A stretch of 64,000 nucleotides of DNA from a virus (IMGVR_UViG_3300025310_000004:59759-123758); one strand, 5' to 3'; numbered from the stretch's first letter, positions 17,932-31,158 are shown. Notes: generated by a model from the letters alone, not told the origin. Made by a program: numbers and translations.

Positions 17932-18017
17932 GAGGGTGCGCCGGAGTTGGAGAGCCGGGTTTGGCTGTAAACCAGATGGCACTGCCTGAGGGGGTTCGAT
18001 TCCCTCCACCCTCACCA
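17932..18017 (+). tRNA. tRNA-Tyr(GTA), class II, CCA encoded
   Basis: Acceptor GAGGGTG/CACCCTC. Anticodon loop CTGTAAA. T-arm GGGGG-TTCGATT-CCCTC. Confidence 0.7.
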
Positions 18018-18077
18018 CTTAGGTCCGTGGCGGAAACACTGCTCCTAGGGCAGAGAAACCGCAGCGGACCTAAGCAT

Positions 18078-18164
18078 GGAAGGTCAACCAGACAGGCGTG
18101 CTGGGACTCCCTGCTAAGGAGTTCGCCCCTTCCGGGGGGTGGGGTTCGAGTCTTCGGCCTTCCG
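18078..18164 (+). tRNA. tRNA-Ser(GCT)
   Basis: Acceptor GGAAGGT/GCCTTCC. Anticodon loop CTGCTAA. Long variable arm. No CCA. Confidence 0.6.
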
Positions 18165-18247
18165 CCGGAACGAACGTACCGATCTAGTTTTCGAGTCAGG
18201 TCAGTGAGCCTGCTCCGTACTGGAATCGGTACGGTCGTGCCGGACAT

Positions 18248-18337
18248 GGAGAGTCAACCGGGCAGGCGTACCGGCGCTCGTTGGAAGCGAGTTGGCACCT
18301 TCACGGGTGTGGGGTTCGAGTCCTCGGCTCTCCGCCA
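18248..18337 (+). tRNA. tRNA-Ser(GGA), CCA encoded
   Basis: Acceptor GGAGAGT/GCTCTCC. Anticodon loop TTGGAAG. Confidence 0.6.
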
Positions 18338-18338
18338 A

Positions 18339-18426
18339 GGAGAGTGAACCGGACAGGCGTGCCGGGACCGTCTCGAAAGCGGATCGCCCCTCCGGGGGTG
18401 GGGTTCAAGTCCTCCGCTCTCCGCCA
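18339..18426 (+). tRNA. tRNA-Ser(CGA), CCA encoded
   Basis: Anticodon loop CTCGAAA. Same acceptor as Ser(GGA). Confidence 0.55.
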
Positions 18427-18427
18427 C

Positions 18428-18515
18428 GGAAGGTCAACCCGACAGGCGTGCGGGCACCGCCTTGAAAGCGGATGGGGGCATCAGCCCTGGGGTTCGAGTC
18501 CTCGGCCTTCCGCCA
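18428..18515 (+). tRNA. tRNA-Ser(TGA), CCA encoded
   Basis: Anticodon loop CTTGAAA. Acceptor GGAAGGT/GCCTTCC. Confidence 0.55.
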
Positions 18516-19008
18516 TCTCTCGCTTGGTGAGCCGAGCGACGTAGGAGTGGTCCATGCTCAACTCCTCAGCGATCGCCCGGTAGGTCCATCCCTGGGAGCG
18601 CAACTCCACCATGCGGCGCAAGTCGTCGGGCGTCGTCCGGCGATACCCGGAGAAGTTGTCTCCCGCCGCCTTGCGGGCTCGGTACTCCCGCATGTAGGTG
18701 GCCTTCGCCGATGTCGATGGCACCCTGGGGTTGGTGGGCCTCGGCTTGCGGGTCGCGACCTTCTTGACGGGAGGGCTTGCGGCCTGCTCTGTCTTGGTGG
18801 CCTTCTTCCTCCTGGCGCACACCGAACAAGCGCAGTCGTTGCGACCTCGACACCGATGATGTGAGCCGGAGAGGCAGTTGGTGCAGGTGATCACGCCGCC
18901 ACCATAGCAATCCACTGAGACATGTCGCACCCATGATGTATGGTGTGGACCCCGACGAAAGGAGGCCCCCATGATCGACCTGCACGCTCTATTCGCACCC
19001 GACGACAT
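18481..19008 (-). CDS. Zn-finger + C-terminal HTH (sigma-70 region-4/LuxR-like) regulator
   Basis: N-terminal Cys clusters, basic linker and WTYRAIAEELSMDHSYVARL. The 3' end overlaps tRNA-Ser on the opposite strand. Confidence 0.55.
   Translation of the reverse strand: MSSGANRACRSIMGASFRRGPHHTSWVRHVSVDCYGGGVITCTNCLSGSHHRCRGRNDCACSVCARRKKATKTEQAASPPVKKVATRKPRPTNPRVPSTSAKATYMREYRARKAAGDNFSGYRRTTPDDLRRMVELRSQGWTYRAIAEELSMDHSYVARLTKREMAEGRGLEPQG
18923..18944 (+). promoter_or_regulatory. conserved promoter motif TGTCGCACCC-N6-TATGGT (copy 3)
   Basis: This copy has a ~20-nt leader with GAAAGGAGG SD before the ATG at 18971. Confidence 0.45.
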
Positions 19009-19849
19009 CCAGGCCGCTCTGGACGCTGGGCACCTGCTCTCGCAGACCCACCCCGAGTTCGACCTGACGATCTACAACTACTCGTCGCTGTGCCAGATCA
19101 GCCGCGCCTGGACCCCGGTCACCTCGTCGTGCCGGGGCATGATCGTCGGTCCCGACGGCAAGGTGCTGGCTCGGCCGTTCCCGAAGCGCTACAATCATCA
19201 GATGGCGCGATTCTCAAGCACCCCCGAAGCCGCAGCGATCGATCACGAGTTCTTTGGGACCGGGAAGCCCGAGGCTGATTGGCTAGCCGGGCTTGTGGCG
19301 GCGGATGGCTGCATCAAGAACGAGAAGTTCTGGACCATCACACAGTCGGGGGATCACGGACTTGAGTTGATTGAAGCGGTCAGGGGCATGATCAACCATG
19401 GCCTGTCTGTTGGTCACTACAAGCCCAAGCGGGGACGAGTGGCTCATTCGATCTACGTTCCGTCGGCCCAGATGGTGGCAGACCTGGCGACCAACTACAG
19501 CATCACGCCCCGTAAGAGCCTCACGTTGACTCCCCCCACATTGGACGAAAGTCGGTTCTCTAACTTCCTGAGGGGCTACATCGACGGAGACGGCACCGTG
19601 GGGAGATACTCGGTGGGGCGCTGTCCGAACTACCTGATCGTATGCTTGGTCGGAACCGAGGACTTCATCGAATCGGTACACCACCTCAACGAGTCCGGGC
19701 GCGTGAGGGAACTCAAGAGGGCCAAGAATACTTGGGAGATCAGGTTCAACGGGAATCACGCCGTTGACTTCTGTCGTCGGACATATGCGGCTGGGAGCGA
19801 CCTTCCTGTCACGACCAAGGCGAAGAAGGCTTTGGGAGCAATCGGATGA
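18971..19849 (+). CDS. LAGLIDADG homing endonuclease fused to a duplicated RNA-ligase N-terminal segment
   Basis: The first ~100 aa parallel the N-terminus of ORF 19846 (HPEFDL.IYNY...CRG.IV). Then LAGLVAADGCI and LRGYIDGDGTV dodecapeptide motifs. Confidence 0.6.
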   Translation: MIDLHALFAPDDIQAALDAGHLLSQTHPEFDLTIYNYSSLCQISRAWTPVTSSCRGMIVGPDGKVLARPFPKRYNHQMARFSSTPEAAAIDHEFFGTGKPEADWLAGLVAADGCIKNEKFWTITQSGDHGLELIEAVRGMINHGLSVGHYKPKRGRVAHSIYVPSAQMVADLATNYSITPRKSLTLTPPTLDESRFSNFLRGYIDGDGTVGRYSVGRCPNYLIVCLVGTEDFIESVHHLNESGRVRELKRAKNTWEIRFNGNHAVDFCRRTYAAGSDLPVTTKAKKALGAIG

Positions 19850-20940
19850 ATCACATTGGCGAGTTCTTGGATTTGGCCTCCCTGGATGCCCACATCGAAG
19901 CGGGCAACATCTCTCGATCCCCACATCACGAATTCGACCTCTACGTCCTGAACTACACGAACCAGGCGCAGTTCTCTCGCTCGTGGGACAACGAGACGCT
20001 TAATTGCCGGGGCCTGATTGTTGACTCGGGCGGTCTGGTCGTTGCTCGAAGTTGGGCCAAGTTCTTCAACCACACCGAGACGGCCGTCCCCAAGTACGCC
20101 CTGACCACGCCGCCCATCGTCACCGAGAAGATGGATGGCTCGCTGGGGATCATCTACCAGCGTCCCGATGGGCGCTTCGCCGTCGCCACGCGTGGCTCGT
20201 TCGCGTCTGACCAGGCCGTCTGGGCAACGCAGTGGCTCACCGTCGAGATGCCGGGGTTCATCCAGCCTGCTGGTGTGACCACCCTGGTGGAGATCATCTA
20301 CCCCGAGAACCGGATCGTTGTGGACTACGGCGACCGTGCGGAGTTGGTGCTGCTGGGTGCCATCAACATCGCCACCGGAGCCGACATCCCCCTGTGGGAG
20401 ATCGACTGGTGGCCTGGTGCTCGCGCCGAGATGCACACCGGCATCGGCCACATGGACGACGTGTACCGCTTCGCGACGGGCAACGAGAAGGAGAACGATG
20501 AGGGCATCGTGGCGGTCTGGTACCGCCCCGGCGAGCCGTCGTTCCGGCTCAAGGTGAAGCACCCCGAGTACGTCCGGCTCCACCGGATCATCACGGGCAT
20601 CAATACCAAGCGCGTCTGGGAGGTGCTGGCTTCTGGCGGCGACTTCTACGACGTACTGGATCGTGTCCCCGACGAGTTCTACGGCTGGGTCAAGGGGGTC
20701 ATCACTGACCTCCGCAACCAGTACCAGGACATCGAGGATGCGGTCTATGAGCAGTTCCAGATCATCTGCCTCAACACCGACGACGGCGACCGCAAGGGCT
20801 TCGCCGCCAAGGCCAAGGCCACGCCGTGGCCGGGGTTGATGTTCGCCCTGCTCGATGGCAAGGACATCGAGCGTGCCATCTGGGACATGATCAAGCCCAA
20901 GGCCGAGAAGCCCTTCGCTGACCAGGGTGAGGACACCTGA
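19846..20940 (+). CDS. RNA ligase (Rnl-type nucleotidyltransferase)
   Basis: KMDGSLG motif I lysine. Sits beside a Pnkp gene. Confidence 0.7.
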   Translation: MNHIGEFLDLASLDAHIEAGNISRSPHHEFDLYVLNYTNQAQFSRSWDNETLNCRGLIVDSGGLVVARSWAKFFNHTETAVPKYALTTPPIVTEKMDGSLGIIYQRPDGRFAVATRGSFASDQAVWATQWLTVEMPGFIQPAGVTTLVEIIYPENRIVVDYGDRAELVLLGAINIATGADIPLWEIDWWPGARAEMHTGIGHMDDVYRFATGNEKENDEGIVAVWYRPGEPSFRLKVKHPEYVRLHRIITGINTKRVWEVLASGGDFYDVLDRVPDEFYGWVKGVITDLRNQYQDIEDAVYEQFQIICLNTDDGDRKGFAAKAKATPWPGLMFALLDGKDIERAIWDMIKPKAEKPFADQGEDT

Positions 20941-21006
20941 TCCTCCCCTGGTCAGTGTCGCAGTGGTGTGCTACTATCACGCCACGCCAAGAGAGAGGAG
21001 ACACCC

Positions 21007-21864
21007 ATGGCACGACTCATCATCACCCGAGGTCTACCGGCATCGGGCAAGTCCACCTGGGCGATCGAGCAGATCGCCAAGAACCCCGGTCGCACCATCC
21101 GTGTCAACCGGGATGACATCCGCGCCTCGATCCATGGCGGCGGCAAGTGGTCCAAGACCAAGGAGAAGGCGACCGTTGCAGTTCGCGACGCCATGATCCG
21201 TGCTGGTCTGGCGCAGGGCCTCACGGTCATCTGCGACGACACGAACCTGCCCCAGAAGGTCGTGGACGACCTGACCTTCCTGGCGCACGAGGCCAAGGCC
21301 GATGTGCTGGTGCAGGACTTCACCCACGTCTCGCCCGAGGAGTGCATCAAGCGTGACCTCGCCCGTGAGCGCACGGTGGGGGCCGAGGTCATCATGCGGT
21401 GGTACAACGACTTTCTCAAGCCGGACATGACCGTCACCGTGGATGAGTCCAAGCCCAAGTGCGTCATCGTGGACGTGGACGGCACCCTCGCCCTCCACGT
21501 CGCTCGCGGCCCCTTCGAGTACGACAAGTGCTCGACGGACGCTCCCAATCCCCGTGTGGTCGAGTTGATCAAGATGCTCCGCTCGACCTACGAGGTGGTG
21601 GTGTGCTCTGGCCGTGAGGGCACCGATCAGTGCCGCGCTGACACCATCGAGTGGCTGCAGCGTCACGGCATCACCTTCTCGGGGTTCTTCATGCGCCCCG
21701 AGGGTGACATGCGGAAGGACGCCATCATCAAGCGCGAGATTCTGGAACGGGACATCCTCCCGCGCTGGAACCCTGTGCTGGTGGTGGACGACCGCGATCA
21801 GGTCGTCCGCATGTGGCGCGATGCCGGGCTGACCTGCTGGCAGGTCGCCGACGGCAACTTCTGA
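21007..21864 (+). CDS. pnkp: polynucleotide kinase-phosphatase (T4 Pnkp-like)
   Basis: N-terminal P-loop GLPASGKST and C-terminal HAD motif VIVDVDGTLA. Confidence 0.8.
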   Translation: MARLIITRGLPASGKSTWAIEQIAKNPGRTIRVNRDDIRASIHGGGKWSKTKEKATVAVRDAMIRAGLAQGLTVICDDTNLPQKVVDDLTFLAHEAKADVLVQDFTHVSPEECIKRDLARERTVGAEVIMRWYNDFLKPDMTVTVDESKPKCVIVDVDGTLALHVARGPFEYDKCSTDAPNPRVVELIKMLRSTYEVVVCSGREGTDQCRADTIEWLQRHGITFSGFFMRPEGDMRKDAIIKREILERDILPRWNPVLVVDDRDQVVRMWRDAGLTCWQVADGNF

Positions 21865-21870
21865 GAGCCG

Positions 21871-21912
21871 CCCCCTGTTGTAGTCCTGTCGATCAGGTGC
21901 TACAACAGGGGG
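21871..21912 (+). promoter_or_regulatory. perfect 13-bp hairpin ending 2 nt before the WhiB-like ATG
   Basis: CCCCCTGTTGTAG-(16 nt)-CTACAACAGGGGG. The 3' arm contains the AGGGGG SD. Confidence 0.4.
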
Positions 21913-21914
21913 CC

Positions 21915-22145
21915 ATGCTCGAACCTCCCGCATGGCACGCCTTCGCCAACTGCCGGGGTTGTGACCCCGACCTGTTCTTCCCCCAACGAGGTGAATCGAC
22001 CAGGGAGGCCAAGGCGGTGTGTGCTGGGTGCGTGGTGCGCGAGGACTGCCTTGCCGACAGCGTTAGTGAGAAGTTCGGCATCTGGGGTGGCCTGAGCGAG
22101 CGTGAGCGACGCCGCATCCGCAGGCGGATCGCCCTCGCTGGATAA
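21915..22145 (+). CDS. WhiB-like (Wbl) protein
   Basis: CRGC, CAGCVVREDC and FGIWGG. Confidence 0.7.
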   Translation: MLEPPAWHAFANCRGCDPDLFFPQRGESTREAKAVCAGCVVREDCLADSVSEKFGIWGGLSERERRRIRRRIALAG

Positions 22146-22307: not shown

Positions 22308-22378
22308 CCCCCCGGAGACATAGGGTGCGTCACCTGCCTCTCAAGCAGGAGAATCGGGTTCGAGTCCCGGCGGGGGGA
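22308..22378 (+). tRNA. tRNA-Glu(CTC)
   Basis: Acceptor CCCCCCG/CGGGGGG. Anticodon loop CTCTCAA. Confidence 0.6.
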
Positions 22379-22381
22379 CTA

Positions 22382-22464
22382 GGGAGTGTGGTGGTCGCGT
22401 GAGCACCATCCCGAGTCAGGAACAACACCAGTGGATCGGTGCCTGACGAGTTGGAGCACTCCCT
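22382..22464 (+). ncRNA. atypical tRNA-like element (acceptor and D-stem pair, no canonical T-loop or anticodon loop)
   Basis: GGGAGTG...CACTCCC 7-bp acceptor, with internal helices GTCAGG/CCTGAC and CACC/GGTG. Confidence 0.3.
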
Positions 22465-22473
22465 CACAACCTA

Positions 22474-22549
22474 GGTCCGTTGGTGTAGTGGTCTTGCACG
22501 TTGGCTTGTCACGCCAAAGGAATTGGGGGTTCGATTCCCCTACGGACCG
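22474..22549 (+). tRNA. tRNA-Asp(GTC)
   Basis: Acceptor GGTCCGT/ACGGACC. Anticodon loop TTGTCAC. Confidence 0.7.
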
Positions 22550-22599
22550 CGTAACTCCCTGGTGAGCCTCTCACCGAAGCGCCCAGGGAGAGAGAACAA

Positions 22600-22671
22600 G
22601 CCCCAGGAGACGTATGGCGAGTCGCCGGACTTTCAATCCGGTTGTAGCGGGTTCGATTCCCGTCTGGGGTA
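22600..22671 (+). tRNA. tRNA-Glu(TTC)
   Basis: Anticodon stem CCGGA/TCCGG. Anticodon loop CTTTCAA. Confidence 0.6.
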
Positions 22672-22684
22672 CGCAACAACACAT

Positions 22685-22754
22685 AGGCCAGCCACAGGGT
22701 GGACGGGAGTCTCCAAAACTCCTAGGCAGGGTTCGAGTCCCTGTTGGCCTGCCA
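22685..22754 (+). tRNA. tRNA-Trp(CCA) with shortened D-arm, CCA encoded
   Basis: Anticodon stem GGAGT/ACTCC. Anticodon loop CTCCAAA. Only 14 nt between acceptor and anticodon stem. Confidence 0.5.
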
Positions 22755-22755
22755 A

Positions 22756-22832
22756 GCGCCCGTGGTCTAATGGATTAGGACACTTGACTACGAATCAAGA
22801 GGCTGCAGGTTCGAGTCCTGCCGGGCGCGCCA
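22756..22832 (+). tRNA. tRNA-Arg(ACG), CCA encoded
   Basis: Acceptor GCGCCCG/CGGGCGC. Anticodon loop CTACGAA. Confidence 0.75.
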
Positions 22833-22833
22833 A

Positions 22834-22906
22834 CCCGATGTAACTCAGCGGAGAGAGTGCCGTCTTGCGAAGGCGGAAGTCGCAGGTTCGACTCCTGCCA
22901 TCGGGG
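22834..22906 (+). tRNA. tRNA-Arg(GCG)
   Basis: Acceptor CCCGATG/CATCGGG. Anticodon loop TTGCGAA. Confidence 0.6.
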
Positions 22907-22922
22907 CTTGACAACAGAACTT

Positions 22923-22997
22923 CCCCCGTTGGTGAAACGGAGATCACGGCGTCGTCCGAAGGCGCAGTTCCAGGTTCGATTCCTGGGTGGGGGGCCA
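22923..22997 (+). tRNA. tRNA-Arg(CCG), CCA encoded
   Basis: D-stem GTGA/TCAC. Anticodon loop GTCCGAA. Confidence 0.55.
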
Positions 22998-23075
22998 CCG
23001 GGTAGGGGTGACGGCTTGGAAGCACGCCGGTCTGGGGGACCGGAGGACGCGGGTTCAAATCCCGCCTACCCGACC
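22998..23075 (+). tRNA. tRNA-Pro(GGG), CCA encoded
   Basis: Acceptor CGGGTAG/CTACCCG. Anticodon loop CTGGGGG. Confidence 0.6.
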
Positions 23076-23079
23076 AGAA

Positions 23080-23445: not shown

Positions 23446-23462
23446 AGCGCAAGCGTACTCTC

Positions 23463-23534: not shown

Positions 23535-23540
23535 CTACAA

Positions 23541-25722: not shown

Positions 25723-25781
25723 CTGCAGCAGGGTCACCTGCGAGCAAGCGATCATTGACAACTGAATAGGTCTACACAGAT

Positions 25782-25849: not shown

Positions 25850-26029
25850 CTGTGGGGAAGGCCGACGGACAAGGCTTAGGCCCGTGAGAGCGTCAGTACG
25901 AACGTGGGAGGACTTCGGTCCGCTTCACCACGCGGAGGCGTTCAAGCCGGGGTGGGTAGCGAGTGGTCGAGTTCTTCCCCCACCAAGGTCGTGGTACGGC
26001 TCCGGGCAACCGGGCCGCCACGGCCTCGT

Positions 26030-26104
26030 GCGGCATAGGTGTTACGGGTTGCATACCTGCCTTCCAAGCAGAGGGACGGGGTTCGAGTCCCCGATGCCGC
26101 TCCA
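26030..26104 (+). tRNA. tRNA-Gly(TCC), CCA encoded
   Basis: Acceptor GCGGCAT/ATGCCGC. Anticodon loop CTTCCAA. Confidence 0.65.
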
Positions 26105-26217
26105 ACCCCATGGATCGGAGTCGCTACCCGCTCCATGCGTCGCCCTACTGCTGACGGGGGCGTGAAGGTGATACCCCACGAGAGTGTGCACGCTCGACCG
26201 GGGCACGTCGGCTCCAA

Positions 26218-26292
26218 GCGTTCAAGGTGTTCCTGGCTGCACGCCACCTTGCCATGGTGGAGGAGGGGGTTCGAGTCCCCCTGGACGCTCCA
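26218..26292 (+). tRNA. tRNA-Gly(GCC), CCA encoded
   Basis: Anticodon stem CCACC/GGTGG. Anticodon loop TTGCCAT. Confidence 0.7.
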
Positions 26293-26293
26293 A

Positions 26294-26369
26294 GGTTCTC
26301 AGGTGTCCGGTTGGATCGGCACGACGGTCTGAAAAGCCGTAGGGCTGGGTTCGAGTCCCAGGGGAACCA
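26294..26369 (+). tRNA. tRNA-Phe(GAA)
   Basis: Anticodon stem ACGGT/GCCGT. Anticodon loop CTGAAAA. Confidence 0.7.
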
Positions 26370-26374
26370 CACAA

Positions 26375-26414
26375 GGTGTTTCCACTGTTTCCTCTGGCGG
26401 AAACAGGAAACACC
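26375..26414 (+). other. long imperfect hairpin in tRNA spacer (GGTGTTTCC..GGAAACACC)
   Basis: About 16 bp of pairing around the loop tctggc. Confidence 0.4.
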
Positions 26415-26421
26415 GAGGACA

Positions 26422-26499
26422 TGCACGGGTAGCGCCAAGCGGCAAAGGCACCTCCTTCACACGGAGGGGATCGTGGGTTCGAGTCCCACCCCGTGTACC
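26422..26499 (+). tRNA. tRNA-Val(CAC), CCA encoded
   Basis: Anticodon stem CCTCC/GGAGG. Anticodon loop TTCACAC. Confidence 0.7.
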
Positions 26500-26500
26500 A

Positions 26501-26577
26501 AGCGCCGGTGCCCGAGCGGCCTAAGGGGGCGGCCTGCAAAGCCGTACTACGGGGGTTCAAATCCCCCCCGGCGCTCC
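26501..26577 (+). tRNA. tRNA-Cys(GCA), CCA encoded
   Basis: Acceptor GCGCCGG/CCGGCGC. Anticodon loop CTGCAAA. Confidence 0.65.
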
Positions 26578-26682
26578 ATCGCAAGAACTCCCACCCGAGC
26601 ACTCGGGGGTGGATCGAGTAACAAGGACCCATCGTCCCCCGCTTCGGCCGGATCGGTGCTAGGAACCCACTGAGTGCGTCAC

Positions 26683-26762
26683 CGGGGCGTATACCCTCCG
26701 TCTGATAAGCGGTAGAAAGGTTAGTTGGTGACACGGAGGTTCAAATCCTCCCGCCCCGACCA
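26683..26762 (+). tRNA. atypical tRNA (possible Ile-GAT loop CTGATAA; D-region too short, long extra region), CCA encoded
   Basis: Acceptor CGGGGCG/CGCCCCG and a canonical T-arm. The internal region does not fold canonically. Confidence 0.3.
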
Positions 26763-26763
26763 T

Positions 26764-26925
26764 GGTGAGAGACAGGAAGGTACGAGGGTTCGATTCCCTC
26801 ACGCTCCACTCGTGGGGCGTCCGGTGGACTCCGGTGAAGTCGGTTCGATTCCGACGCCCCGTAGGGGTGATGGTCACGAATAGGGTCGCTCCCGCCGAGG
26901 TGGTTCGACTCCACCACTCTCACCA
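26764..26925 (+). ncRNA. three tandem tRNA-like T-arm/acceptor minihelices enclosed by an 8-bp terminal helix, ending CCA
   Basis: T-arms at ~26784, 26851 and 26905, spaced 54-67 nt apart. 5' GGTGAGAG pairs with 3' CTCTCACC. Confidence 0.4.
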
Positions 26926-26931
26926 GATCAT

Positions 26932-27008
26932 GCACGGGTGGCCAAGTCTGGTAAGGCCCCTCCATGACACGGAGGAAACCGCGGGTTCAAATCCCGCCTC
27001 GTGCACCA
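26932..27008 (+). tRNA. tRNA-Val(GAC), CCA encoded
   Basis: Anticodon loop ATGACAC. T-arm GCGGG-TTCAAAT-CCCGC. Confidence 0.65.
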
Positions 27009-27009
27009 C

Positions 27010-27083
27010 TGCGCCGAAGTCGATTGGCGAGACAGCGGCCTCATAAGCCGTGGTAGAGGGTTCGATTCCCTCCGGCGCGACCA
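27010..27083 (+). tRNA. tRNA-Met/Ile2(CAT), CCA encoded
   Basis: Anticodon stem GCGGC/GCCGT. Anticodon loop CTCATAA. Confidence 0.6.
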
Positions 27084-27084
27084 C

Positions 27085-27159
27085 GCACCCAAGGTCTAGA
27101 CGGCGAGACGGCGGCATGGTAAGCCGCAGAGCGGGGTTCAAGTCCCCGTGGGTGCTCCA
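27085..27159 (+). tRNA. tRNA-Thr(GGT), CCA encoded
   Basis: Acceptor GCACCCA/TGGGTGC. Anticodon loop ATGGTAA. Confidence 0.7.
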
Positions 27160-27160
27160 C

Positions 27161-27235
27161 GCACTGGAAGCATGAATGGTGATGCGGCTGTCTCGTAAAC
27201 AGCAGAACCGGGTTCGATTCCCGGCCGGTGCTCCA
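27161..27235 (+). tRNA. tRNA-Thr(CGT), CCA encoded
   Basis: D-stem GCAT/ATGC. Anticodon loop CTCGTAA. Confidence 0.75.
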
Positions 27236-27236
27236 T

Positions 27237-27308
27237 GCCGTTGGCCCTGGTGGGCGCGCCGCCGTTGTACCGCGGTTACCTCGGGTTCGATCCCTGGCGA
27301 CGGCTCCA
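27237..27308 (+). tRNA. atypical tRNA: reduced D-arm and apparent 9-nt anticodon loop (CGTTGTACC), CCA encoded
   Basis: Acceptor GCCGTTG/CGACGGC. T-loop TTCGATC. Confidence 0.35.
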
Positions 27309-27360: not shown

Positions 27361-27995
27361 CATGCGAGTTGAGATTCGCCCCGGTGAAGGGGGTGAGGAC
27401 GCCCAGCGCTTCGCCAAGGAGTGCCTTTGACGCGTTCTGCAAGGCGGCCCGCCGACGTGGGCTTGAGCCAGCAGTCAGCGAGTCCGCTCGCACCATGATC
27501 TTGGAGATCGCCGACATCTCCTTCCTTGAGCCCTTCGTCGGCACCCACCGCGTGCAGCGCATCCCCAAGGGGGAGCAGCGCCGTCACACCTCGACGGCCA
27601 CGGTTGCGATCGTCGGCCAGGTAGACAATGACGACTTCATCCCCGATGAGGAAATCGAGGAGCGGTTCGATCGCGGTGGCGGCAAGGGTGGCCAGCACCA
27701 GAACACCACCGACTCGGCGGTGACCCTCACCCACACCCCCACCGGGATCACGGTCCACATCGAGGGACGCAAGCAGTGGGGCAACCGCCAGGAAGCACGT
27801 CGGGTGCTATCCGAACGGGTAGCAGCCCATCGCCGAGCAGAGGCGTTGCGGATGTGCAACGACCAGCGGCGCGCCCAGATCAACCCGGAGCGCTCCGCCA
27901 AGTCGTTCACCCACAACACTCAGCGCAACGAGGTGGTGGACCACGACTCGGGTCGGTCGTGGCGGCTCACCGAGTTCCATAAGGGCAAGTTCTGA
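27361..27995 (+). CDS. prfH-like: class-I release-factor homologue lacking domain 1 (RF-H/PrfH-like); full length requires +1 frameshift at CUU UGA C
   Basis: Frame A gives MRVEIRPGEGGEDAQRFAKECL then TGA. The +1 frame continues DAFCKAARRRG...HRVQRIP...GGQHQNTTDSAVTLTHTPTGI. AAGGAG sits 3 nt upstream of CTT. Confidence 0.65.
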
Positions 27996-28017: not shown

Positions 28018-28827
28018 GTGCCGATGGCCAGGATGCTCGTACTCGGTGACACGCACGGCGACGTGAAGTTCTTGGAGCGCGCCTGCCGGATGGCCGTGAA
28101 GTCCGACTGCGACCGCATCGTCCAGGTCGGCGATTGGGGCTTCCTGTGGCCAGGAGCGAAGAACGATCGCCTCAAGGCGATCACCAACGTGTTGGCGCAG
28201 TTCGACCTCCACATGTTCTTCCTCGACGGCAACCATGAGTGGTATGGCCGCTTGGAGGAGATGGGGGCGACCCCCGATGCTCCCCACATGGTTGCGCTGT
28301 CGGATCGGGTCGCCTACTTGCCTCGTGGCTTCACTTGGGCTTGGGGCGGCGTGACCTTCATGTCGCTTGGCGGTGCCTTCTCCATCGACCAGGACCAGCG
28401 GACCAAGTTCATCGACTATTGGCCCCAGGAGACGATCCGTTACGCGGACGCTGACCGTGCCATTGCCGCTGGGCATGTGGACGTGATGTTCACCCACGAC
28501 GTTCCCGAGGGCGTTGTCAAGTTGGAGGCGATGCTGCATCGCGCCAGTGATCACTACCGGAGGTCCTACGGGGCCAAGTGGAACTACAAGTTGGACCCCG
28601 GCAGCCGGGCCAACCGCAAGACGTTGCGCGCCGTCGTTGACGAGGTGCAGCCCTTCTTGCTGATCCACGGCCACTACCACTGGCGCTACGACGACACCTT
28701 GGTGGGCGAGGACTACACCACCGAGGTGCGCGGCCTTGACTGCAACGGCTCGGGCGAGAGGGCCTGGGGAGTCGTGGATACGGCCGATGTCTTGAGATGG
28801 AGACTTGTCGTTGACGACGACGAATGA
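28018..28827 (+). CDS. calcineurin-like metallophosphoesterase
   Basis: GDTHGD, GDWG, DGNHE and GHYH motifs. Confidence 0.75.
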   Translation: MPMARMLVLGDTHGDVKFLERACRMAVKSDCDRIVQVGDWGFLWPGAKNDRLKAITNVLAQFDLHMFFLDGNHEWYGRLEEMGATPDAPHMVALSDRVAYLPRGFTWAWGGVTFMSLGGAFSIDQDQRTKFIDYWPQETIRYADADRAIAAGHVDVMFTHDVPEGVVKLEAMLHRASDHYRRSYGAKWNYKLDPGSRANRKTLRAVVDEVQPFLLIHGHYHWRYDDTLVGEDYTTEVRGLDCNGSGERAWGVVDTADVLRWRLVVDDDE

Positions 28828-29158: not shown

Positions 29159-29242
29159 TGCGGGGGTGGCGTAACTGGCAGCCGCGCCGGGTTTAGGTCC
29201 CGGTGGCCGAGAGGTCGTGAGGGTTCGAGTCCCTCCTCCCGC
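29159..29242 (+). tRNA. tRNA-Leu(TAG)
   Basis: Anticodon stem CCGGG/CCCGG. Anticodon loop TTTAGGT. 15-nt variable arm. Confidence 0.65.
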
Positions 29243-29246
29243 ACCG

Positions 29247-29333
29247 AGTGCCCGTGGCGGAACTGGTAGACGCGTTGTCCTCAGAAGGCAATGTCCGCAA
29301 GGGCGTGAGGGTTCGACTCCCTCCGGGCACACC
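29247..29333 (+). tRNA. tRNA-Leu(CAG), CCA encoded
   Basis: Acceptor GTGCCCG/CGGGCAC. Anticodon loop CTCAGAA. Confidence 0.7.
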
Positions 29334-29334
29334 A

Positions 29335-29420
29335 AGTCAGCATGGTGGAATGGTAGACACGCCGTCTTGAGGGGGCGGTGGCCGCAAGGTCGTGAGGGTT
29401 CGACTCCCTCTGCTGACACC
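29335..29420 (+). tRNA. tRNA-Leu(GAG), CCA encoded
   Basis: Acceptor GTCAGCA/TGCTGAC. Anticodon loop TTGAGGG. Confidence 0.7.
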
Positions 29421-29445
29421 AAACGCAAGAAACGCAACAAGATCA

Positions 29446-29527
29446 AGCCCGAGTGGCGGAACTGGCAGACGCGCTCGTCTCAAGAACGAGTGACCTAGGT
29501 CGTGTGGGTTCGACTCCCACCTCGGGC
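29446..29527 (+). tRNA. tRNA-Leu(CAA)
   Basis: Anticodon stem CTCGT/ACGAG. Anticodon loop CTCAAGA. Confidence 0.7.
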
Positions 29528-29560
29528 ACGCAAGGCTCTTTGACAACAGAAGATCACCGA

Positions 29561-29614: not shown

Positions 29615-30037
29615 ATGACGATCACCCAGAAGTGCAAGCGCTGCGGAAAGCGGCGTGAACACGGACTCCGACGCAATGGCAGTGCTCAGGCGTACTGCCG
29701 TCAGTGTCAGAGGGAATACAGCAAGAGTCACTACGAAACCAACAAGGGTTCGTACAACGGCAGGAGGTTGAAGCACCAACGGCAGCGACGCCAAGACGGA
29801 TACAAGATCACGAACTCGGCCAAGGATCGCCCTTGCGTCGATTGCGGGGTCAAGTACCCGACCTACGTCATGCAGTTCGATCATCGGGACCCGACGACCA
29901 AGAACTTCACGATTGCCACCCATGTTCGCAATGGTGGCTCCTTGAAGGCGCTGATCGCCGAGATCGAGAAGTGTGACGTGGTTTGTGCGAATTGTCATGC
30001 CGAAAGGACGCATCAACAACGCAACGGGACGGGGTGA
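29615..30037 (+). CDS. HNH homing endonuclease
   Basis: MQFDHRDP and CANCHAERTH HNH motif. The gene has lower GC than its flanks. Confidence 0.8.
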   Translation: MTITQKCKRCGKRREHGLRRNGSAQAYCRQCQREYSKSHYETNKGSYNGRRLKHQRQRRQDGYKITNSAKDRPCVDCGVKYPTYVMQFDHRDPTTKNFTIATHVRNGGSLKALIAEIEKCDVVCANCHAERTHQQRNGTG

Positions 30038-30102
30038 CGGTTTGGTTGCACGCCGCGTTCGGGACGCGGAGGTCGCGGGTTCAAATCCCGCCGTCCCGAC
30101 CA
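30025..30102 (+). tRNA. tRNA-Pro(CGG), CCA encoded
   Basis: Acceptor CGGGACG/CGTCCCG. Anticodon loop TTCGGGA. The 5' end overlaps the HNH stop. Confidence 0.65.
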
Positions 30103-30103
30103 T

Positions 30104-30176
30104 CGGAAGGTGGTGACAAGCGCACAGCGGCCGTTGGGGCCGCAGGACCGGGGGTAGCGTCCCGGCTTTCCGACCA
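30104..30176 (+). pseudogene. cloverleaf tRNA-like with non-canonical loops (T-loop GGTAGCGT, anticodon loop CGTTGGG), CCA encoded
   Basis: Acceptor CGGAAGG/CTTTCCG. All four helices are present. Confidence 0.35.
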
Positions 30177-30177
30177 A

Positions 30178-30249
30178 CGGGTAGGTGCCGGATGGCAAGG
30201 CACTCGGTTTGGGGCCGAGACTAAGGAGGTTCGATTCCTCTCTACCCGA
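30178..30249 (+). tRNA. tRNA-Pro(TGG)
   Basis: Anticodon stem CTCGG/CCGAG. Anticodon loop TTTGGGG. Confidence 0.65.
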
Positions 30250-30254
30250 CTTGA

Positions 30255-30323
30255 TCGATGGTGGCCGCAATTGGTAGCGGTAGCCCGACGGGGTTTGTGC
30301 GGGTTCGAGTCCCGTCCATCGAT
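30255..30323 (+). pseudogene. tRNA-like with canonical acceptor/T-arm but collapsed anticodon arm
   Basis: Acceptor TCGATGG/CCATCGA and T-arm GCGGG-TTCGAGT-CCCGT. Internal CCCGACGGG. Confidence 0.3.
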
Positions 30324-30330
30324 CAACCAT

Positions 30331-30406
30331 TCCGGGGAAGGTTGATGGCATCCTGCCCGCACTCTGAATGCGGACCACGTTGGTTCGATTCCAACCCCCG
30401 GAGCCA
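30331..30406 (+). tRNA. tRNA-Gln(CTG), CCA encoded
   Basis: Anticodon stem CCGCA/TGCGG. Anticodon loop CTCTGAA. Confidence 0.7.
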
Positions 30407-30407
30407 T

Positions 30408-30483
30408 GGTGACCGGAGCCGGATGGAGAGGCGCTTGGTTGTGACCCAAGCAGCAGGGGGTTCGATTCCCCTCGGTCACCCCA
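30408..30483 (+). tRNA. tRNA-His(GTG) with encoded G-1 and C73, CCA encoded
   Basis: G-1 + GTGACCG/CGGTCAC. Anticodon loop TTGTGAC. Confidence 0.7.
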
Positions 30484-30487
30484 TCGA

Positions 30488-30562
30488 TCGGGAGTGGTGT
30501 AACGGCAGCACGCGAGGCTTTGAACCTCGTAGGTGAGGGTTCGAGTCCTTCCTCCCGAGCCA
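30488..30562 (+). tRNA. tRNA-Gln(TTG), CCA encoded
   Basis: Acceptor TCGGGAG/CTCCCGA. Anticodon loop CTTTGAA. Confidence 0.7.
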
Positions 30563-30591: not shown

Positions 30592-30744
30592 ATGCTAGGT
30601 AACCGAAAGAACCGAGGTCGCCACGGCGATAGGTACTGCCCCTACGGGTGCTGCCGCAGCCTGGTGACCGGCAAGAAGTCCAAGACCCGCCGCATCTTGC
30701 GGACCCGCGACAAGCGGGCCTGGGTCAAGGACCAGCGCAACTGA
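30592..30744 (+). CDS. small basic Cys-containing protein (50 aa)
   Basis: AGGAG SD. MLGNRKNRGRHGDRYCPYGCCRS... Below the ORF-track cutoff. Confidence 0.3.
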   Translation: MLGNRKNRGRHGDRYCPYGCCRSLVTGKKSKTRRILRTRDKRAWVKDQRN

Positions 30745-30748
30745 TCGT

Positions 30749-30824
30749 TCCGGGGTGGCCGATAGGCAAGGCGGCTCCCTGTTAAGGAGTTTCAATGTGG
30801 GTTCGAGTCCCACCCCCGGAGCCA
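30749..30824 (+). tRNA. tRNA-Asn(GTT), CCA encoded
   Basis: Anticodon loop CTGTTAA. T-arm GTGGG-TTCGAGT-CCCAC. Confidence 0.7.
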
Positions 30825-30825
30825 A

Positions 30826-30900
30826 CCCGAGATGGCGTAGCAGGCAACGCGGCTGGCCGTTAACCAGCAGTGGGGGGTTCAAGTCCTTCTCTCGGGGCCA
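30826..30900 (+). tRNA. tRNA with GTT anticodon and C33 (second Asn-like), CCA encoded
   Basis: Anticodon stem GCTGG/CCAGC. Anticodon loop CCGTTAA. Confidence 0.45.
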
Positions 30901-30901
30901 T

Positions 30902-30979
30902 CCAGGTGTAGCAAACGTTGGCATTGCACCCGCCTCTTAAGCGGACTAAACGTGGGTTCGATTCCCGCCGCCTGGACCA
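30902..30979 (+). tRNA. tRNA-Lys(CTT), CCA encoded
   Basis: Anticodon loop CTCTTAA. T-arm GTGGG-TTCGATT-CCCGC. Confidence 0.6.
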
Positions 30980-30980
30980 A

Positions 30981-31055
30981 CCGCCTCAAGCATTGATGGT
31001 GATGCACCCGACTCTTAATCGGGAGAGCAGGTTTCGAGTACCTGGGGGCGGACCA
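30981..31055 (+). tRNA. tRNA-Lys(CTT) second copy, CCA encoded
   Basis: D-stem GCAT/ATGC. Anticodon stem CCCGA/TCGGG. Anticodon loop CTCTTAA. Confidence 0.6.
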
Positions 31056-31086
31056 TGAGAACGAAACCAACGCCAACTCCAATCTC

Positions 31087-31158
31087 GGGGGTATGGCGTA
31101 GCGGTAGCGCACCGGACTTTTAATCCGAGAGGCCAGGGTTCGATCCCCTGTGCCCCCA
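31087..31158 (+). tRNA. tRNA-Lys(TTT)
   Basis: Acceptor GGGGGTA/TGCCCCC. Anticodon loop CTTTTAA. Confidence 0.6.

What the first reader, a model, noticed from the sequence alone, without database searches (positions are those of the whole stretch)
17932..31158. Near-complete tRNA complement (~45 genes in six clusters) with an RNA ligase-Pnkp repair pair
By manual cloverleaf parsing I find Tyr, 4 Ser, 2 Glu, Asp, Trp, 5 Arg, 3 Pro, 2 Met, Ala, 2 Gly, Phe, 2 Val, Cys, 2 Thr, 4 Leu, 2 Gln, His, 2 Asn-like and 3 Lys, plus several atypical ones. About half encode CCA. An Rnl-type ligase and a T4-like Pnkp are adjacent at 19846-21864. The combination points to heavy investment in countering host tRNA depletion or anticodon nucleases.
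Basis: partly seen in the sequence, partly recalled or inferred. Interest (0 to 1): 0.5.

Follow-up and report, generated by a model that had tools for sequence, protein, structure and literature searches.

The report
Phage tRNA island with frameshifted release factor
An uncultured actinobacterial phage carries about 43 tRNA genes with RNA-repair enzymes, which is a known kind of arrangement, but the same island also holds a shortened release-factor gene that can only be made complete through a +1 ribosomal frameshift of the type otherwise known from bacterial RF2.

Summary
ARAGORN tRNAs on the + strand at 17932-31159. Six weaker candidates (Ser-CGA, Trp, Ala-GGC, Phe, Ile-GAT, Thr-TGT) sit where related phages have the same tRNA, giving about 43 genes for all 20 amino acids. 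CCA is encoded in about two-thirds, not half. The Rnl1-type ligase (19846-20940) and T4-type Pnkp (20968-21864) are real, with catalytic motifs intact.

Large tRNA arrays with Ro and repair enzymes are already annotated in actinophages such as Arthrobacter phage Atuin, so the finding as written is a new member of a known kind.

The unexpected part is a domain-1-less, RF1-like release factor (27362-27995). Its complete product requires a +1 frameshift at AAGGAG-N3-CUU UGA C, the prfB cassette. The same shift is required at the same protein position in 10 phage lineages. The joined product models as one fold (pLDDT 90.7). My searches found no prior report. A conserved tRNA-Pro-like RNA without an anticodon loop (30104-30176) is also present.

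The parts
17932..18515 (+). tRNA cluster 1: Tyr-GTA, Ser-GCT, Ser-GGA, Ser-CGA (weak call), Ser-TGA, separated by structured hairpin spacers
18971..19849 (+). LAGLIDADG homing endonuclease ORF. Its first 76 residues are a diverged, position-matched copy of the ligase N-terminus.
   Evidence: Pfam PF14528; PHROG endonuclease plus RNA-ligase N-terminus; BLASTP 42% identity over residues 13-76 of both proteins, E 7e-15
19846..20940 (+). Rnl1-family (T4 RnlA-type) RNA ligase, motif I K95-M-D-G
   Evidence: PF09511 52.9 bits; 40-43% identity to annotated actinophage RNA ligases; motif
20968..21864 (+). T4-type polynucleotide kinase/3'-phosphatase (Pnkp). P-loop GLPASGKS and HAD motif DVDGT. The real start is probably the ATG at 21007.
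21813..22145 (+). WhiB-like regulator, which points to an actinobacterial host
   Evidence: PHROG 472, E 4.5e-23
22308..23613 (+). tRNA cluster 2: Glu-CTC, Asp, Glu-TTC, Trp-CCA (22685-22754, reduced D-arm), Arg-ACG, Arg-GCG, Arg-CCG, Pro-GGG, then a minus-strand ORF (23080-23487), then Arg-CCT and Arg-TCT
24567..25256 (+). RlaP (RNA-ligase-associated Pol-beta) nucleotidyltransferase, GS...DID motif
   Evidence: PF10127, E 1.1e-23; 45-48% identity to Streptomyces phage nucleotidyltransferases; motif
25440..27308 (+). tRNA cluster 3: Met-CAT (initiator-like, with a 1:72 mismatch seen by eye), Ala-TGC, Ala-GGC, Gly-TCC, Gly-GCC, Phe-GAA, Val-CAC, Cys, aberrant Ile-GAT (26683-26762), tRNA fragments (26764-26926), Val-GAC, Met-CAT, Thr-GGT, Thr-CGT, Thr-TGT
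27362..27430 (+). Release-factor ORF1 (frame 0): RBS AAGGAGA, ATG 27362, MRVEIRPGEGGEDAQRFAKECL, stop TGA at 27428-27430
27417..27431 (+). prfB-type +1 frameshift cassette: AGGAG, a 3-nt spacer (TGC), then CTT TGA C
   Evidence: Occurs once in the window; 0 of 100 shuffles contain it. Conserved in relatives.
27429..27995 (+). Release-factor ORF2 (+1 frame): rest of domain 2, the GGQ domain 3 and domain 4. The joined product is 210 aa.
   Evidence: PF00472 and PF03462; NCBIfam prfA above prfB above prfH; PDB sequence search; AlphaFold model and fold search
28018..28827 (+). Calcineurin-type metallophosphoesterase (GDTHGD, GDWG, GNHE), syntenic in relatives
29160..29529 (+). tRNA cluster 4: Leu-TAG, Leu-CAG, Leu-GAG, Leu-CAA
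29615..30037 (+). HNH homing endonuclease
   Evidence: PHROG 2255, E 1.2e-29
30025..30562 (+). tRNA cluster 5: Pro-CGG, Pro-TGG, Gln-CTG, His, Gln-TTG, with two anticodon-less tRNA-like RNAs interleaved
30104..30176 (+). Conserved tRNA-Pro-like RNA: C1:G72, A73 and encoded CCA, D-arm, a 6-bp stem capped by a 4-5-nt loop where the anticodon arm should be, and a non-canonical T-loop
   Evidence: Present in 4 lineages. All 84 cells pair, 7 of 21 pairs change on both sides, 0 of 500 shuffles reach the score, slid controls give at most 1. No Rfam hit.
30251..30329 (+). Second anticodon-less tRNA-like element: 11-bp closing stem plus CCA, canonical D- and T-arms, 5-bp stem with a GACG loop. Unique to this window.
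30749..31159 (+). tRNA cluster 6: Asn-GTT x2, Lys-CTT x2, Lys-TTT
33153..33776 (+). Five tandem Y-RNA-like genes. Units 1-3 (about 150 nt) carry a tRNA-like module with a T-arm (YrlA-like). Units 4-5 (about 82 nt) are short (YrlB-like).
33818..35404 (+). Ro60 (TROVE plus vWA) homolog. The true start is ATG 33818 after the RBS GAAAGGAG, not 33605.

Best explanation
This is the translation-support island of an uncultured tailed phage of an actinobacterial host. About 43 tRNA genes lie on one strand in six clusters. They cover all 20 amino acids and essentially every codon the phage uses. They are interleaved with enzymes that heal and reseal broken RNA: Pnkp fixes the ends, RlaP re-adds lost 3' nucleotides, the Rnl1 ligase seals, and a metallophosphoesterase may act on ends. 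Homing endonucleases that shuffle the array are also present. A Ro60 protein with five Y RNAs follows downstream. Inferred mechanism: the phage supplies its own tRNA pool and repairs cleaved tRNAs, so its protein synthesis survives loss or cleavage of host tRNAs. Inside the island is a release factor derived from RF1 that lacks domain 1. Its first 22 codons are in frame 0 and end at UGA. The remaining 188 codons are in the +1 frame. The full protein is made only when a ribosome slips +1 at CUU UGA C, helped by a Shine-Dalgarno-like AGGAG 3 nt upstream, as in bacterial prfB. Inferred consequence: the factor is produced when termination at that stop codon is slow, meaning release-factor capacity is limiting. 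It then most likely adds stop-codon-dependent peptide release for a phage whose genes end mostly in UGA. Shown here: the genes, motifs, synteny, the frameshift requirement and the single fold of the joined product. Inferred: enzymatic activity on tRNA, the frameshift in vivo, and which codons the factor reads.
For: tRNAs: 37 by ARAGORN, 30 above the Rfam cut-off, 6 more supported by conserved gene order in relatives. Anticodons match both the commonest and the rare codons. ATA and TTA occur once each in 12,640 codons. Repair enzymes: Pfam hits, homology and intact catalytic motifs. The order dNMP kinase, Rnl1, Pnkp, RlaP, tRNAs, RF, metallophosphoesterase recurs in metagenomic relatives, with Thg1, PTH2, a second ligase or a tmRNA added in some. 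RlaP adds 1-2 nucleotides to damaged RNA 3' ends and was required to restore aminoacylation of over-trimmed repaired tRNA (PMC12776372 abstract). Release factor: the frame-0 leader MRVEIRPGEGG.DA..FA..CL is conserved and is homologous to the start of RF domain 2. The joined products align without a gap to single-frame homologs and to an RF1 fragment. The cassette occurs once in the window and in 0 of 100 shuffles. A +1 shift is needed at the same protein position in 10 lineages: CUU UGA C in 8, CUU UAA C in 1, AAA UGA G in 1. An SD-like element is always 3 nt upstream, even in a 38% GC lineage. In L002, L009 and L012 the +1 frame has stops just upstream, so no alternative start can include the leader. 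The AlphaFold model has pLDDT 90.7, and one helix (residues 12-31) crosses the junction. It superposes on ribosome-bound RF1 at TM 0.86-0.87. GGQ and the RF1 positions Q181, P184, H193 and T194 are kept. Of 30 window ORFs, 22 end in TGA, 8 in TAG and none in TAA.
Against: The host is unknown and no tRNA-targeting nuclease is in evidence. No expression, processing or charging data exist for any tRNA. Trp has a reduced D-arm, Ile-GAT is aberrant, and Thr-TGT scores poorly. The ligase is far below NCBIfam's equivalog cut-off (46.9 against 242.25 bits), so its substrate may differ from that of T4 Rnl1. For the release factor, the PxT codon-reading tripeptide is replaced (PKG) in a loop 2 residues shorter, so codon specificity cannot be read from sequence. 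One close relative uses UAA instead of UGA at the shift site, which weakens a strictly UGA/RF2-specific sensor. Lack of domain 1 and the RNA-repair neighbourhood resemble PrfH, a rescue factor and not a terminator. Frameshifting is inferred from comparative evidence only.
Confidence: 0.7

Rival explanations
1. The tRNA array only compensates for codon-usage differences between phage and host. It supplies tRNAs for codons that the phage uses more than the host does, and has nothing to do with defence or tRNA loss.
For: This is the classical explanation for phage tRNAs. A few tRNAs do serve rare codons: Lys-TTT for AAA at 1%, Arg-TCT for AGA at 2%, Thr-TGT for ACA at 3%.
Against: The set is essentially complete and includes tRNAs for the phage's commonest, GC-ending codons (GCC, GAC, GAG, TTC, GGC, ATC, AAG, CTG, AAC, CAG, CGC, ACC, TAC). 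A 63% GC actinobacterial host should already decode these well. The array is tightly and syntenically linked to RNA-repair enzymes.
Confidence: 0.15
2. The shortened release factor is not a stop-codon terminator. It is a PrfH-like rescue factor that frees ribosomes stalled by RNA damage, such as cleaved tRNA or rRNA or an empty or damaged A site, while the neighbouring ligase, Pnkp and RlaP repair the RNA.
For: Like PrfH it lacks domain 1 and sits among RNA-repair genes. PrfH with RtcB2 performs sequential rescue and repair of damaged ribosomes (PMC9304027). Some relatives add peptidyl-tRNA hydrolase PTH2 or a tmRNA next to it. The PxT motif is lost.
Against: It fails the PrfH model (53.6 against 166.65 bits). 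It is much closer to RF1 in sequence (112 against 36 bits) and in fold (TM 0.86 against 0.66). It keeps most RF1 stop-codon-reading residues, including the GG.(E/D)A helix tip, Q181, H193 and T194. There is no RtcB in the window. Gating its synthesis on a stop codon makes most sense if its job concerns termination.
Confidence: 0.3
3. The split release-factor gene is a decaying pseudogene or an assembly error, and the CTT TGA C is coincidental.
For: Gene callers annotate only the downstream ORF, with inconsistent starts giving 165-229 aa.
Against: Ten independent assemblies from different samples need the same +1 shift at the same residue. Both halves are under protein-level conservation and the spacer varies synonymously. 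The cassette is not expected by chance. The joined product is a confident single fold.
Confidence: 0.03
4. The atypical tRNA-like pieces are all dead remnants of tRNA gene turnover driven by homing endonucleases, and have no function.
For: The three T-arm-containing pieces at 26764-26926 have no partners for a full cloverleaf. Relatives show similar isolated T-arm or D-arm fragments in their gaps. HNH and LAGLIDADG genes are present.
Against: The Pro-like element at 30104-30176 is kept at the same position in four diverged lineages, with compensatory changes in three helices. That indicates selection on its structure.
Confidence: 0.5

Closest known systems
Phage T4 Pnkp plus Rnl1 tRNA healing-and-sealing pathway (counter to the PrrC anticodon nuclease)
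   Same: Adjacent, co-oriented bifunctional kinase/HAD-phosphatase (42-44% identity to T4-like pseT) and an Rnl1-family ligase with the KxDG motif.
   Different: The ligase is only distantly related to T4 RnlA (below the NCBIfam equivalog cut-off). Here the pair is joined by RlaP, a metallophosphoesterase and a full tRNA set. No cognate host nuclease is known.
Actinophage tRNA arrays (mycobacteriophage clusters C, M and V; Arthrobacter phage Atuin) and Mycobacterium tRNA array units
   Same: Dozens of same-strand tRNAs covering about 20 amino acids, interleaved with HNH endonucleases and small ORFs. Atuin also has Ro inside its array. Morgado and Vicente 2018 (PMC5966550) noted an RF-1-domain gene, Pth and tmRNA in some arrays.
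   Different: No nucleotide-level match to any deposited phage. The major capsid protein is at most 36.5% identical over 69% of its length. The specific RF gene has no homolog in cultured actinophages. I found no description of a frameshift.
Bacterial prfB (RF2) autoregulatory +1 programmed frameshift
   Same: Short ORF1, shift site CUU U, in-frame UGA followed by C, and an SD-like stimulator 3 nt upstream. These are the features summarised in Atkins et al. 2016 (PMC5009743).
   Different: The gene is RF1-like, not RF2. It has no SPF motif. The shift lies in the domain-2 helix and not in domain 1, which is absent. It is phage-encoded. Variants with UAA or with AAA as the slippery codon exist.
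PrfH (RF-H) with RtcB2 ribosome rescue-and-repair module
   Same: A release-factor paralog without domain 1, genetically linked to RNA ligase-based repair.
   Different: It fails the PrfH family model. It is closer to RF1 in sequence and fold. It is linked to Rnl1, Pnkp and RlaP and not to RtcB. It keeps most stop-codon-reading residues.
Ro60 with YrlA/YrlB Y RNAs (Chen et al. 2014, PMC4201824)
   Same: A TROVE protein immediately preceded on the same strand by RNAs with a long terminal stem. Three of them carry a tRNA-like module with a T-arm. Known in bacteria and mycobacteriophages.
   Different: There are five tandem copies. The stem motif is GCG(A/T)AG, not a literal GNCGAA(N)G. No Rfam family matched.

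Membership tests
T4-type Pnkp/Rnl1 tRNA repair | Bifunctional Pnkp: N-terminal P-loop 5'-kinase plus C-terminal HAD (DxDxT) 3'-phosphatase | tested here: met
   AAA_33 66.9 bits plus HAD_PNKP 166.1 bits; GLPASGKS and DVDGT; 42-44% identity to pseT over 97%
T4-type Pnkp/Rnl1 tRNA repair | Rnl1-family ATP-dependent RNA ligase with the motif I lysine (KxDG) | tested here: met
   PF09511 52.9 bits against 28.3; K95MDG. The NCBIfam T4 RnlA equivalog score of 46.9 is far below its 242.25 cut-off, so this is family membership, not orthology.
T4-type Pnkp/Rnl1 tRNA repair | Acts on tRNA cleaved in the anticodon loop by a host nuclease | not testable with these tools
   Host and nuclease are unknown. 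This needs biochemistry or genetics.
Phage tRNA array | Many (over 20) clustered, co-oriented tRNA genes recognised by independent tRNA finders | tested here: met
   37 by ARAGORN; 30 by Rfam at the gathering score
Phage tRNA array | Isotypes for all 20 amino acids | tested here: met
   17 amino acids from the firm calls. Trp, Phe and Ile come from weaker calls supported by synteny. The Ile gene is structurally aberrant.
prfB-type programmed +1 frameshift | Shift site CUU U followed by an in-frame UGA and then C | tested here: met
   CTT TGA C at 27425-27431; the same in 7 other lineages; variants CTT TAA C and AAA TGA G in two
prfB-type programmed +1 frameshift | Shine-Dalgarno-like stimulator 3 nt upstream of the shift codon | tested here: met
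   AAGGAG-TGC-CTT in the window; AGGAG, AGGAC, GGGGG or GAGGAG at the same spacing in all 10 lineages
prfB-type programmed +1 frameshift | Short ORF1, with the functional protein needing ORF1 plus ORF2 in the +1 frame | tested here: met
   A 22-codon ORF1 encodes the conserved start of domain 2. The alignment across the junction has no gap. One helix spans it in the model.
prfB-type programmed +1 frameshift | The gene encodes RF2 (SPF motif, full length, shift within domain 1) | tested here: not met
   prfA 109-111 bits against prfB 77.6; RF1 112 against RF2 65 bits; PKG at the PxT position; domain 1 absent
prfB-type programmed +1 frameshift | Frameshifting occurs in vivo and rises when release-factor activity is low | not testable with these tools
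   Needs a reporter assay, ribosome profiling or mass spectrometry
PrfH (RF-H) | Matches the PrfH family model (TIGR03072) | tested here: not met
   53.6 bits against a cut-off of 166.65, and only over the GGQ domain
PrfH (RF-H) | Release-factor paralog lacking domain 1 | tested here: met
   Aligns to RF1 residues 109-318 (T. thermophilus) and 113-336 (E. coli) only
PrfH (RF-H) | Operon partner RtcB ligase | tested here: not met
   No RtcB among the annotated ORFs of the island or in relatives' loci. The neighbours are Rnl1, Pnkp and RlaP.
Ro60/YrlA Y-RNA module | TROVE-domain Ro60 protein | tested here: met
   PF05731, E 9.3e-15, with vWA_Ro60 just below its cut-off; 35-44% identity to annotated actinophage Ro-like proteins
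Ro60/YrlA Y-RNA module | Y RNA genes adjacent to Ro on the same strand, with a terminal stem formed by the 5' and 3' ends | tested here: met
   Five units at 33153-33776. The conserved 5' block occurs exactly 5 times and only there. MFE folds pair the 5' and 3' blocks.
Ro60/YrlA Y-RNA module | GNCGAA(N0-1)G motif in the Ro-binding stem | tested here: inconclusive
   The units have TGCGAAG or TGCGTAG, which is close but not literal
Ro60/YrlA Y-RNA module | tRNA-like module (T-arm and D-arm) in at least one Y RNA | tested here: met
   Units 1-3 contain GGTTCGA(C/T)TCC T-arms, and unit 1 also a D-arm-like GTGGTGTAACGGCCAGCAC. Weak tRNA-like Rfam hits at 33355-33418 and 33172-33228.
Ro60/YrlA Y-RNA module | Match to a curated covariance model | tested here: not met
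   No Y-RNA family reached E of 10 or better in 31000-37000

The most novel reading that the evidence does not exclude
A clade of phages has taken an RF1-derived release factor, removed domain 1, altered the loop that reads the second stop-codon base, and independently evolved the RF2-style autoregulatory +1 frameshift (SD-N3-CUU UGA C) at a non-homologous place in the gene. The phage would then sense the cell's termination capacity. When that capacity is low, the phage makes its own factor, possibly one that reads UGA or all three stops. This would be the first known use of the prfB recoding cassette outside prfB.
Probability: 0.35. Interest if true: 0.8.

Novelty: new variant of a known kind. 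Interest (0 to 1): 0.55.

Why it matters
The tRNA array with Rnl1 and Pnkp adds one more, well-resolved example to the emerging view that phage tRNA sets and RNA-repair enzymes protect phage translation from host tRNA loss. It comes from a lineage with no cultured representative. The release-factor gene matters more. The CUU UGA C frameshift is a textbook case known from a single gene family, prfB. Finding the same device in a phage-borne, RF1-like, domain-1-less factor would mean two things. Termination capacity would be a resource that phages monitor and supplement. The cassette would also be a portable sensor that evolution has reinvented. This gives recoding and termination researchers a compact and directly testable system. 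It also warns annotators that these genes are routinely truncated by gene callers. The anticodon-less, CCA-ended tRNA-Pro-like RNA is a further candidate for a tRNA mimic of unknown role.

Tried and rejected
- **Nucleotide search against phages:** megablast of the 15-kb region against 50,697 phage records found nothing, so there was no close annotated reference.
- **Relaxed ARAGORN thresholds:** used alone they were rejected as evidence. At -ps90 and -ps80 ARAGORN called tRNAs inside ORFs, permuted tmRNAs, and a spurious 92-nt 'Trp' at 26772-26863.
- **A small or permuted tmRNA at 26684-26926:** considered because of G3:U70-type acceptor ends and weak Rfam tmRNA hits. Rejected because scores are far below threshold, there is no tag ORF, and relatives show comparable isolated tRNA fragments.
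- **PrfH membership of the RF gene:** tested and not met.
- **TadA identity for the deaminase at 32542-33036:** considered, but it scores as a dCMP/ComEB-type deaminase.
- **More copies of the Pro-like RNA:** a viral-contig pattern scan returned only the four known lineages, plus ordinary tRNA-Pro genes and chance hits.
- **Promoter and terminator scans:** no enrichment over shuffles.
- **First structure-prediction job:** It was redone with database sequences.

Full report
**1. The observation**

ARAGORN at default settings finds 37 tRNA genes. All are on the + strand, between 17932 and 31159. Rfam's tRNA model independently passes its gathering score for 30 of them.

The gaps between tRNAs and a relaxed ARAGORN run gave six more candidates:

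| Candidate | Coordinates | Support |
|---|---|---|
| Ser-CGA | 18339-18426 | relaxed ARAGORN; Rfam Sec-like 33.3 bits |
| Trp-CCA | 22685-22754 | found by eye, reduced D-arm, G73 and CCA; Rfam tRNA 23.5 bits on a short slice |
| Ala-GGC | 25782-25849 | relaxed ARAGORN; G3:U70 seen by eye |
| Phe-GAA | 26294-26370 | Rfam tRNA 28.9 bits against a cut-off of 29 |
| Ile-GAT | 26683-26762 | 31.7 bits on a slice, but no D-arm in the normal place and about 21 extra nucleotides after the anticodon arm |
| Thr-TGT | 27237-27308 | weak partial match, 17.7 bits |

Relaxed thresholds also produce obvious false calls, so I rest these six on comparative evidence. Metagenomic relatives (section 3) keep the same tRNA order: Glu-Asp-Glu-Trp-Arg..., Ala-Ala-Gly-Gly-Phe-Val-Cys-Ile-Val-Met-Thr-Thr, and so on. 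They carry the same isotype at each of these positions, mostly called at default thresholds. A short tRNA-Trp of about 70 nt is a clade feature, seen in L003, L008 and L009.

The total is 43 genes in six clusters.

CCA is encoded in 25 of the 37 firm genes and in 29-30 of all 43. That is about two-thirds, not half.

**2. The enzymes**

- ORF 19846-20940 is an Rnl1-family ligase (PF09511). It is 40-43% identical to annotated actinophage RNA ligases and has motif I K95MDG.
- ORF 20968-21864 is a T4-type Pnkp, with AAA_33 and HAD_PNKP domains. It is 42-44% identical to pseT of T4-like phages over 97% of its length. The P-loop and DVDGT motifs are intact.
  - an RlaP nucleotidyltransferase (24567-25256);
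  - a metallophosphoesterase (28018-28827);
  - a LAGLIDADG endonuclease (18971-19849) and an HNH endonuclease (29615-30037);
  - a WhiB regulator (21813-22145);
  - an RF-1-domain ORF (27369-27995).
- Downstream lie an SPFH protein, a dCMP-type deaminase and a Ro60/TROVE protein.

**3. What the phage is and what is already known**

The window encodes portal, major head, major tail and tape-measure proteins. It has no nucleotide match in 50,697 phage records. Its capsid protein is at most 36.5% identical to those of Arthrobacter phages Mimi, Racecar and Atuin. With WhiB and 63% GC, an actinobacterial host is likely.

Atuin has about 33 annotated tRNAs around a Ro-like gene. Ro-like, RlaP-like and RNA-ligase genes are annotated in many Streptomyces, Gordonia and Mycobacterium phages. 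tRNA arrays in Mycobacterium phages, plasmids and chromosomes have been surveyed (PMC5966550) and are discussed as possible anti-defence devices (PMC12803027). The finding as written is therefore a new member of a known kind.

**4. Codon analysis**

I counted 12,640 codons from 30 ORFs. The tRNA anticodons match the commonest codons as well as rare ones. With wobble only ATA, TTA (one occurrence each) and GTA (2% of Val) lack an obvious decoder. This favours replacement of the host tRNA pool over rare-codon supplementation.

Stop codons are TGA 22, TAG 8 and TAA 0.

**5. The release-factor gene**

The 208-aa ORF scores best against the C-terminal half of RF1. It fails the PrfH model (53.6 against 166.65 bits). 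It has no homolog in cultured actinophages.

A search of the large protein collection found a family of 165-230-aa proteins. Their contigs show conserved synteny: dNMP kinase, Rnl1, Pnkp, RlaP, tRNAs, RF, metallophosphoesterase. Thg1, PTH2, Band_7 or a tmRNA are added in some.

Reading the DNA upstream showed the following:
- A frame-0 ORF with a good RBS starts at 27362 and encodes MRVEIRPGEGGEDAQRFAKECL. This is the start of RF domain 2, including the GG.(E/D)A helix tip that reads the first stop-codon base in RF1.
- The ORF ends in TGA within AAGGAG-TGC-CTT TGA C.
- The rest of the protein continues in the +1 frame.

This is the prfB cassette as described in PMC5009743: CUU_U shift site, UGA followed by C, and an SD-like stimulator upstream.

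Evidence that it is a maintained recoding site:
- The cassette occurs once in the window and in 0 of 100 shuffles.
- A +1 shift is needed at the same residue in 10 lineages, down to 47-52% protein identity and 38% GC. The site is CUU UGA C in 8, CUU UAA C in 1 and AAA UGA G in 1. An SD-like element is always 3 nt upstream, and the spacer codon varies synonymously.
- In three lineages the +1 frame is closed just upstream, so no alternative start can capture the leader.
- The joined products align without a gap to single-frame homologs and to an RF1 fragment.
- The AlphaFold model of the joined 210-aa protein has pLDDT 90.7, with one helix (residues 12-31) crossing the junction.
- It superposes on ribosome-bound RF1 domains 2-4 (TM 0.86-0.87), compared with RF2 at 0.81 and PrfH at 0.66.

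The sequence search confirms that domain 1 is absent. Single-frame relatives sit in ordinary actinobacterial chromosomal contexts, so the frameshift appears specific to the phage clade.

GGQ and the RF1 positions Q181, P184, H193 and T194 are conserved. The PxT tripeptide reads PKG, in a loop two residues shorter. Codon specificity is therefore open.

Literature searches found only a passing mention of an 'RF-1 domain' gene in Mycobacterium tRNA arrays (PMC5966550). They found no report of a frameshift. The review of release-factor evolution does not mention phages or frameshifting.

**6. tRNA-like RNAs**

- **Pro-like RNA (30104-30176).** It lies between Pro-CGG and Pro-TGG and recurs in L002, L003 and L005.
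  - Structure: tRNA-Pro-type acceptor end (C1:G72, A73, encoded CCA), a D-arm, a 6-bp stem capped by only 4-5 nt instead of an anticodon arm, and a non-canonical T-loop.
  - Covariation: all 84 cells pair, 7 of 21 pairs change on both sides, 0 of 500 shuffles reach the score, and slid controls give at most 1.
  - No Rfam model matches it. It is absent from L008.
- **Second element (30251-30329).** It has an 11-bp closing stem, canonical D- and T-arms and a GACG-capped stem. It is unique to the window.
- **Fragments (26764-26926).** Three T-arm-containing pieces look like remnants, and relatives have similar fragments.

**7. Ro and Y RNAs**

Ro alignments start at about residue 36-65 of the long ORF. 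The real start is ATG 33818, after the RBS GAAAGGAG.

The 33153-33776 stretch holds five tandem units with invariant blocks: GCG(A/T)AG...GGG(A/T)TACTTC on the 5' side and AGTTC(T/A)CG on the 3' side. These blocks occur only there and pair as a terminal stem. Units 1-3 enclose a T-arm-containing tRNA-like module.

Atuin has comparable GTTACTTC and GTTCTC stems upstream of its Ro gene. This fits the YrlA/YrlB description (PMC4201824), but no curated model matched.

**8. Verdict**

As described, the finding is a known kind of phage island. The release factor that depends on a prfB-type frameshift is, as far as I could find, undescribed, and it raises the interest of the locus.

Noticed in passing
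window 27362-27995 (cassette 27417-27431): A domain-1-less RF1-like release factor that needs a prfB-type +1 frameshift (AAGGAG-N3-CTT TGA C). The requirement is conserved at the same protein position in 10 phage lineages, and gene callers truncate the gene.
   Followed up: yes
window 30104-30176; L003 13207-13279; L002 16337-16408; L005 17659-17733: A conserved, CCA-ended tRNA-Pro-like RNA with a 4-5-nt loop in place of the anticodon loop and a non-canonical T-loop. Covariation is strong in three helices. Its function is unknown.
   Followed up: yes
window 30251-30329: A second anticodon-less tRNA-like element: 11-bp closing stem plus CCA, canonical D- and T-arms, and a GACG-capped short stem. 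It is absent from relatives, which have only 14-17 nt there.
   Followed up: partly
window 33153-33776 and 33818-35404: Five tandem Y-RNA-like genes (three YrlA-like with a tRNA-like module, two short) directly upstream of a Ro60/TROVE gene. The true Ro start is 33818, so the long ORF from 33605 overlaps two of the RNAs.
   Followed up: yes
window 26764-26926 and 26579-26682: Three T-arm-containing tRNA fragments sit between Ile and Val-GAC. The spacer between Cys and Ile shares conserved blocks with L008 (for example TCGAGTAACA.GGACCCA and CTAGGAACCC.ACTGAGTGC), which suggests an unannotated structured element.
   Followed up: partly
window 18971-19849: The LAGLIDADG endonuclease ORF begins with a diverged copy (42% identity, residues 13-76) of the N-terminus of the adjacent RNA ligase. 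It looks like the footprint of a homing endonuclease invading a ligase gene.
   Followed up: partly
window 11543-15232: A 1229-aa protein has an N-terminal 2H phosphoesterase (2'-5' RNA ligase superfamily) domain fused to MuF, portal-associated or head-protease-like regions. It may be a virion-delivered RNA or cyclic-nucleotide phosphodiesterase.
   Followed up: no
window 22834-22907: tRNA-Arg with anticodon GCG lies next to Arg-ACG. Relatives have ACG or CCG there. A G34 version would read CGC/CGU without needing A34-to-I34 deamination by host TadA, and CGC is the commonest Arg codon (46%).
   Followed up: no
window 18018-18077, 18167-18247, 22380-22473, 22551-22599, 26371-26422: The spacers between tRNAs form long, nearly perfect hairpins or closed multi-stem structures. 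They may be processing signals.
   Followed up: no
window 25440-25515: One of the two CAT tRNAs starts CGCGG and has a 1:72 mismatch (C:C), like an initiator tRNA. The other (27010-27083) could be elongator Met or Ile2. This was not resolved.
   Followed up: partly
30 ORFs across the window: Stop-codon usage is TGA 22, TAG 8 and TAA 0. No suppressor tRNA and no sign of stop-codon reassignment were seen.
   Followed up: partly
L002 15920-16232; L005 17397-17557: Some relatives have tRNAs with Leu anticodons that are only 75-77 nt long, which means no long variable arm. Whether these are charged with leucine is unclear.
   Followed up: no
L002 5932-6702; L005 8182-8790; L012 4624-5006: The equivalent islands of relatives add Thg1 (tRNA-His guanylyltransferase), PTH2 (peptidyl-tRNA hydrolase) or a tmRNA. 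The island is a variable toolkit for tRNA and ribosome maintenance.
   Followed up: partly
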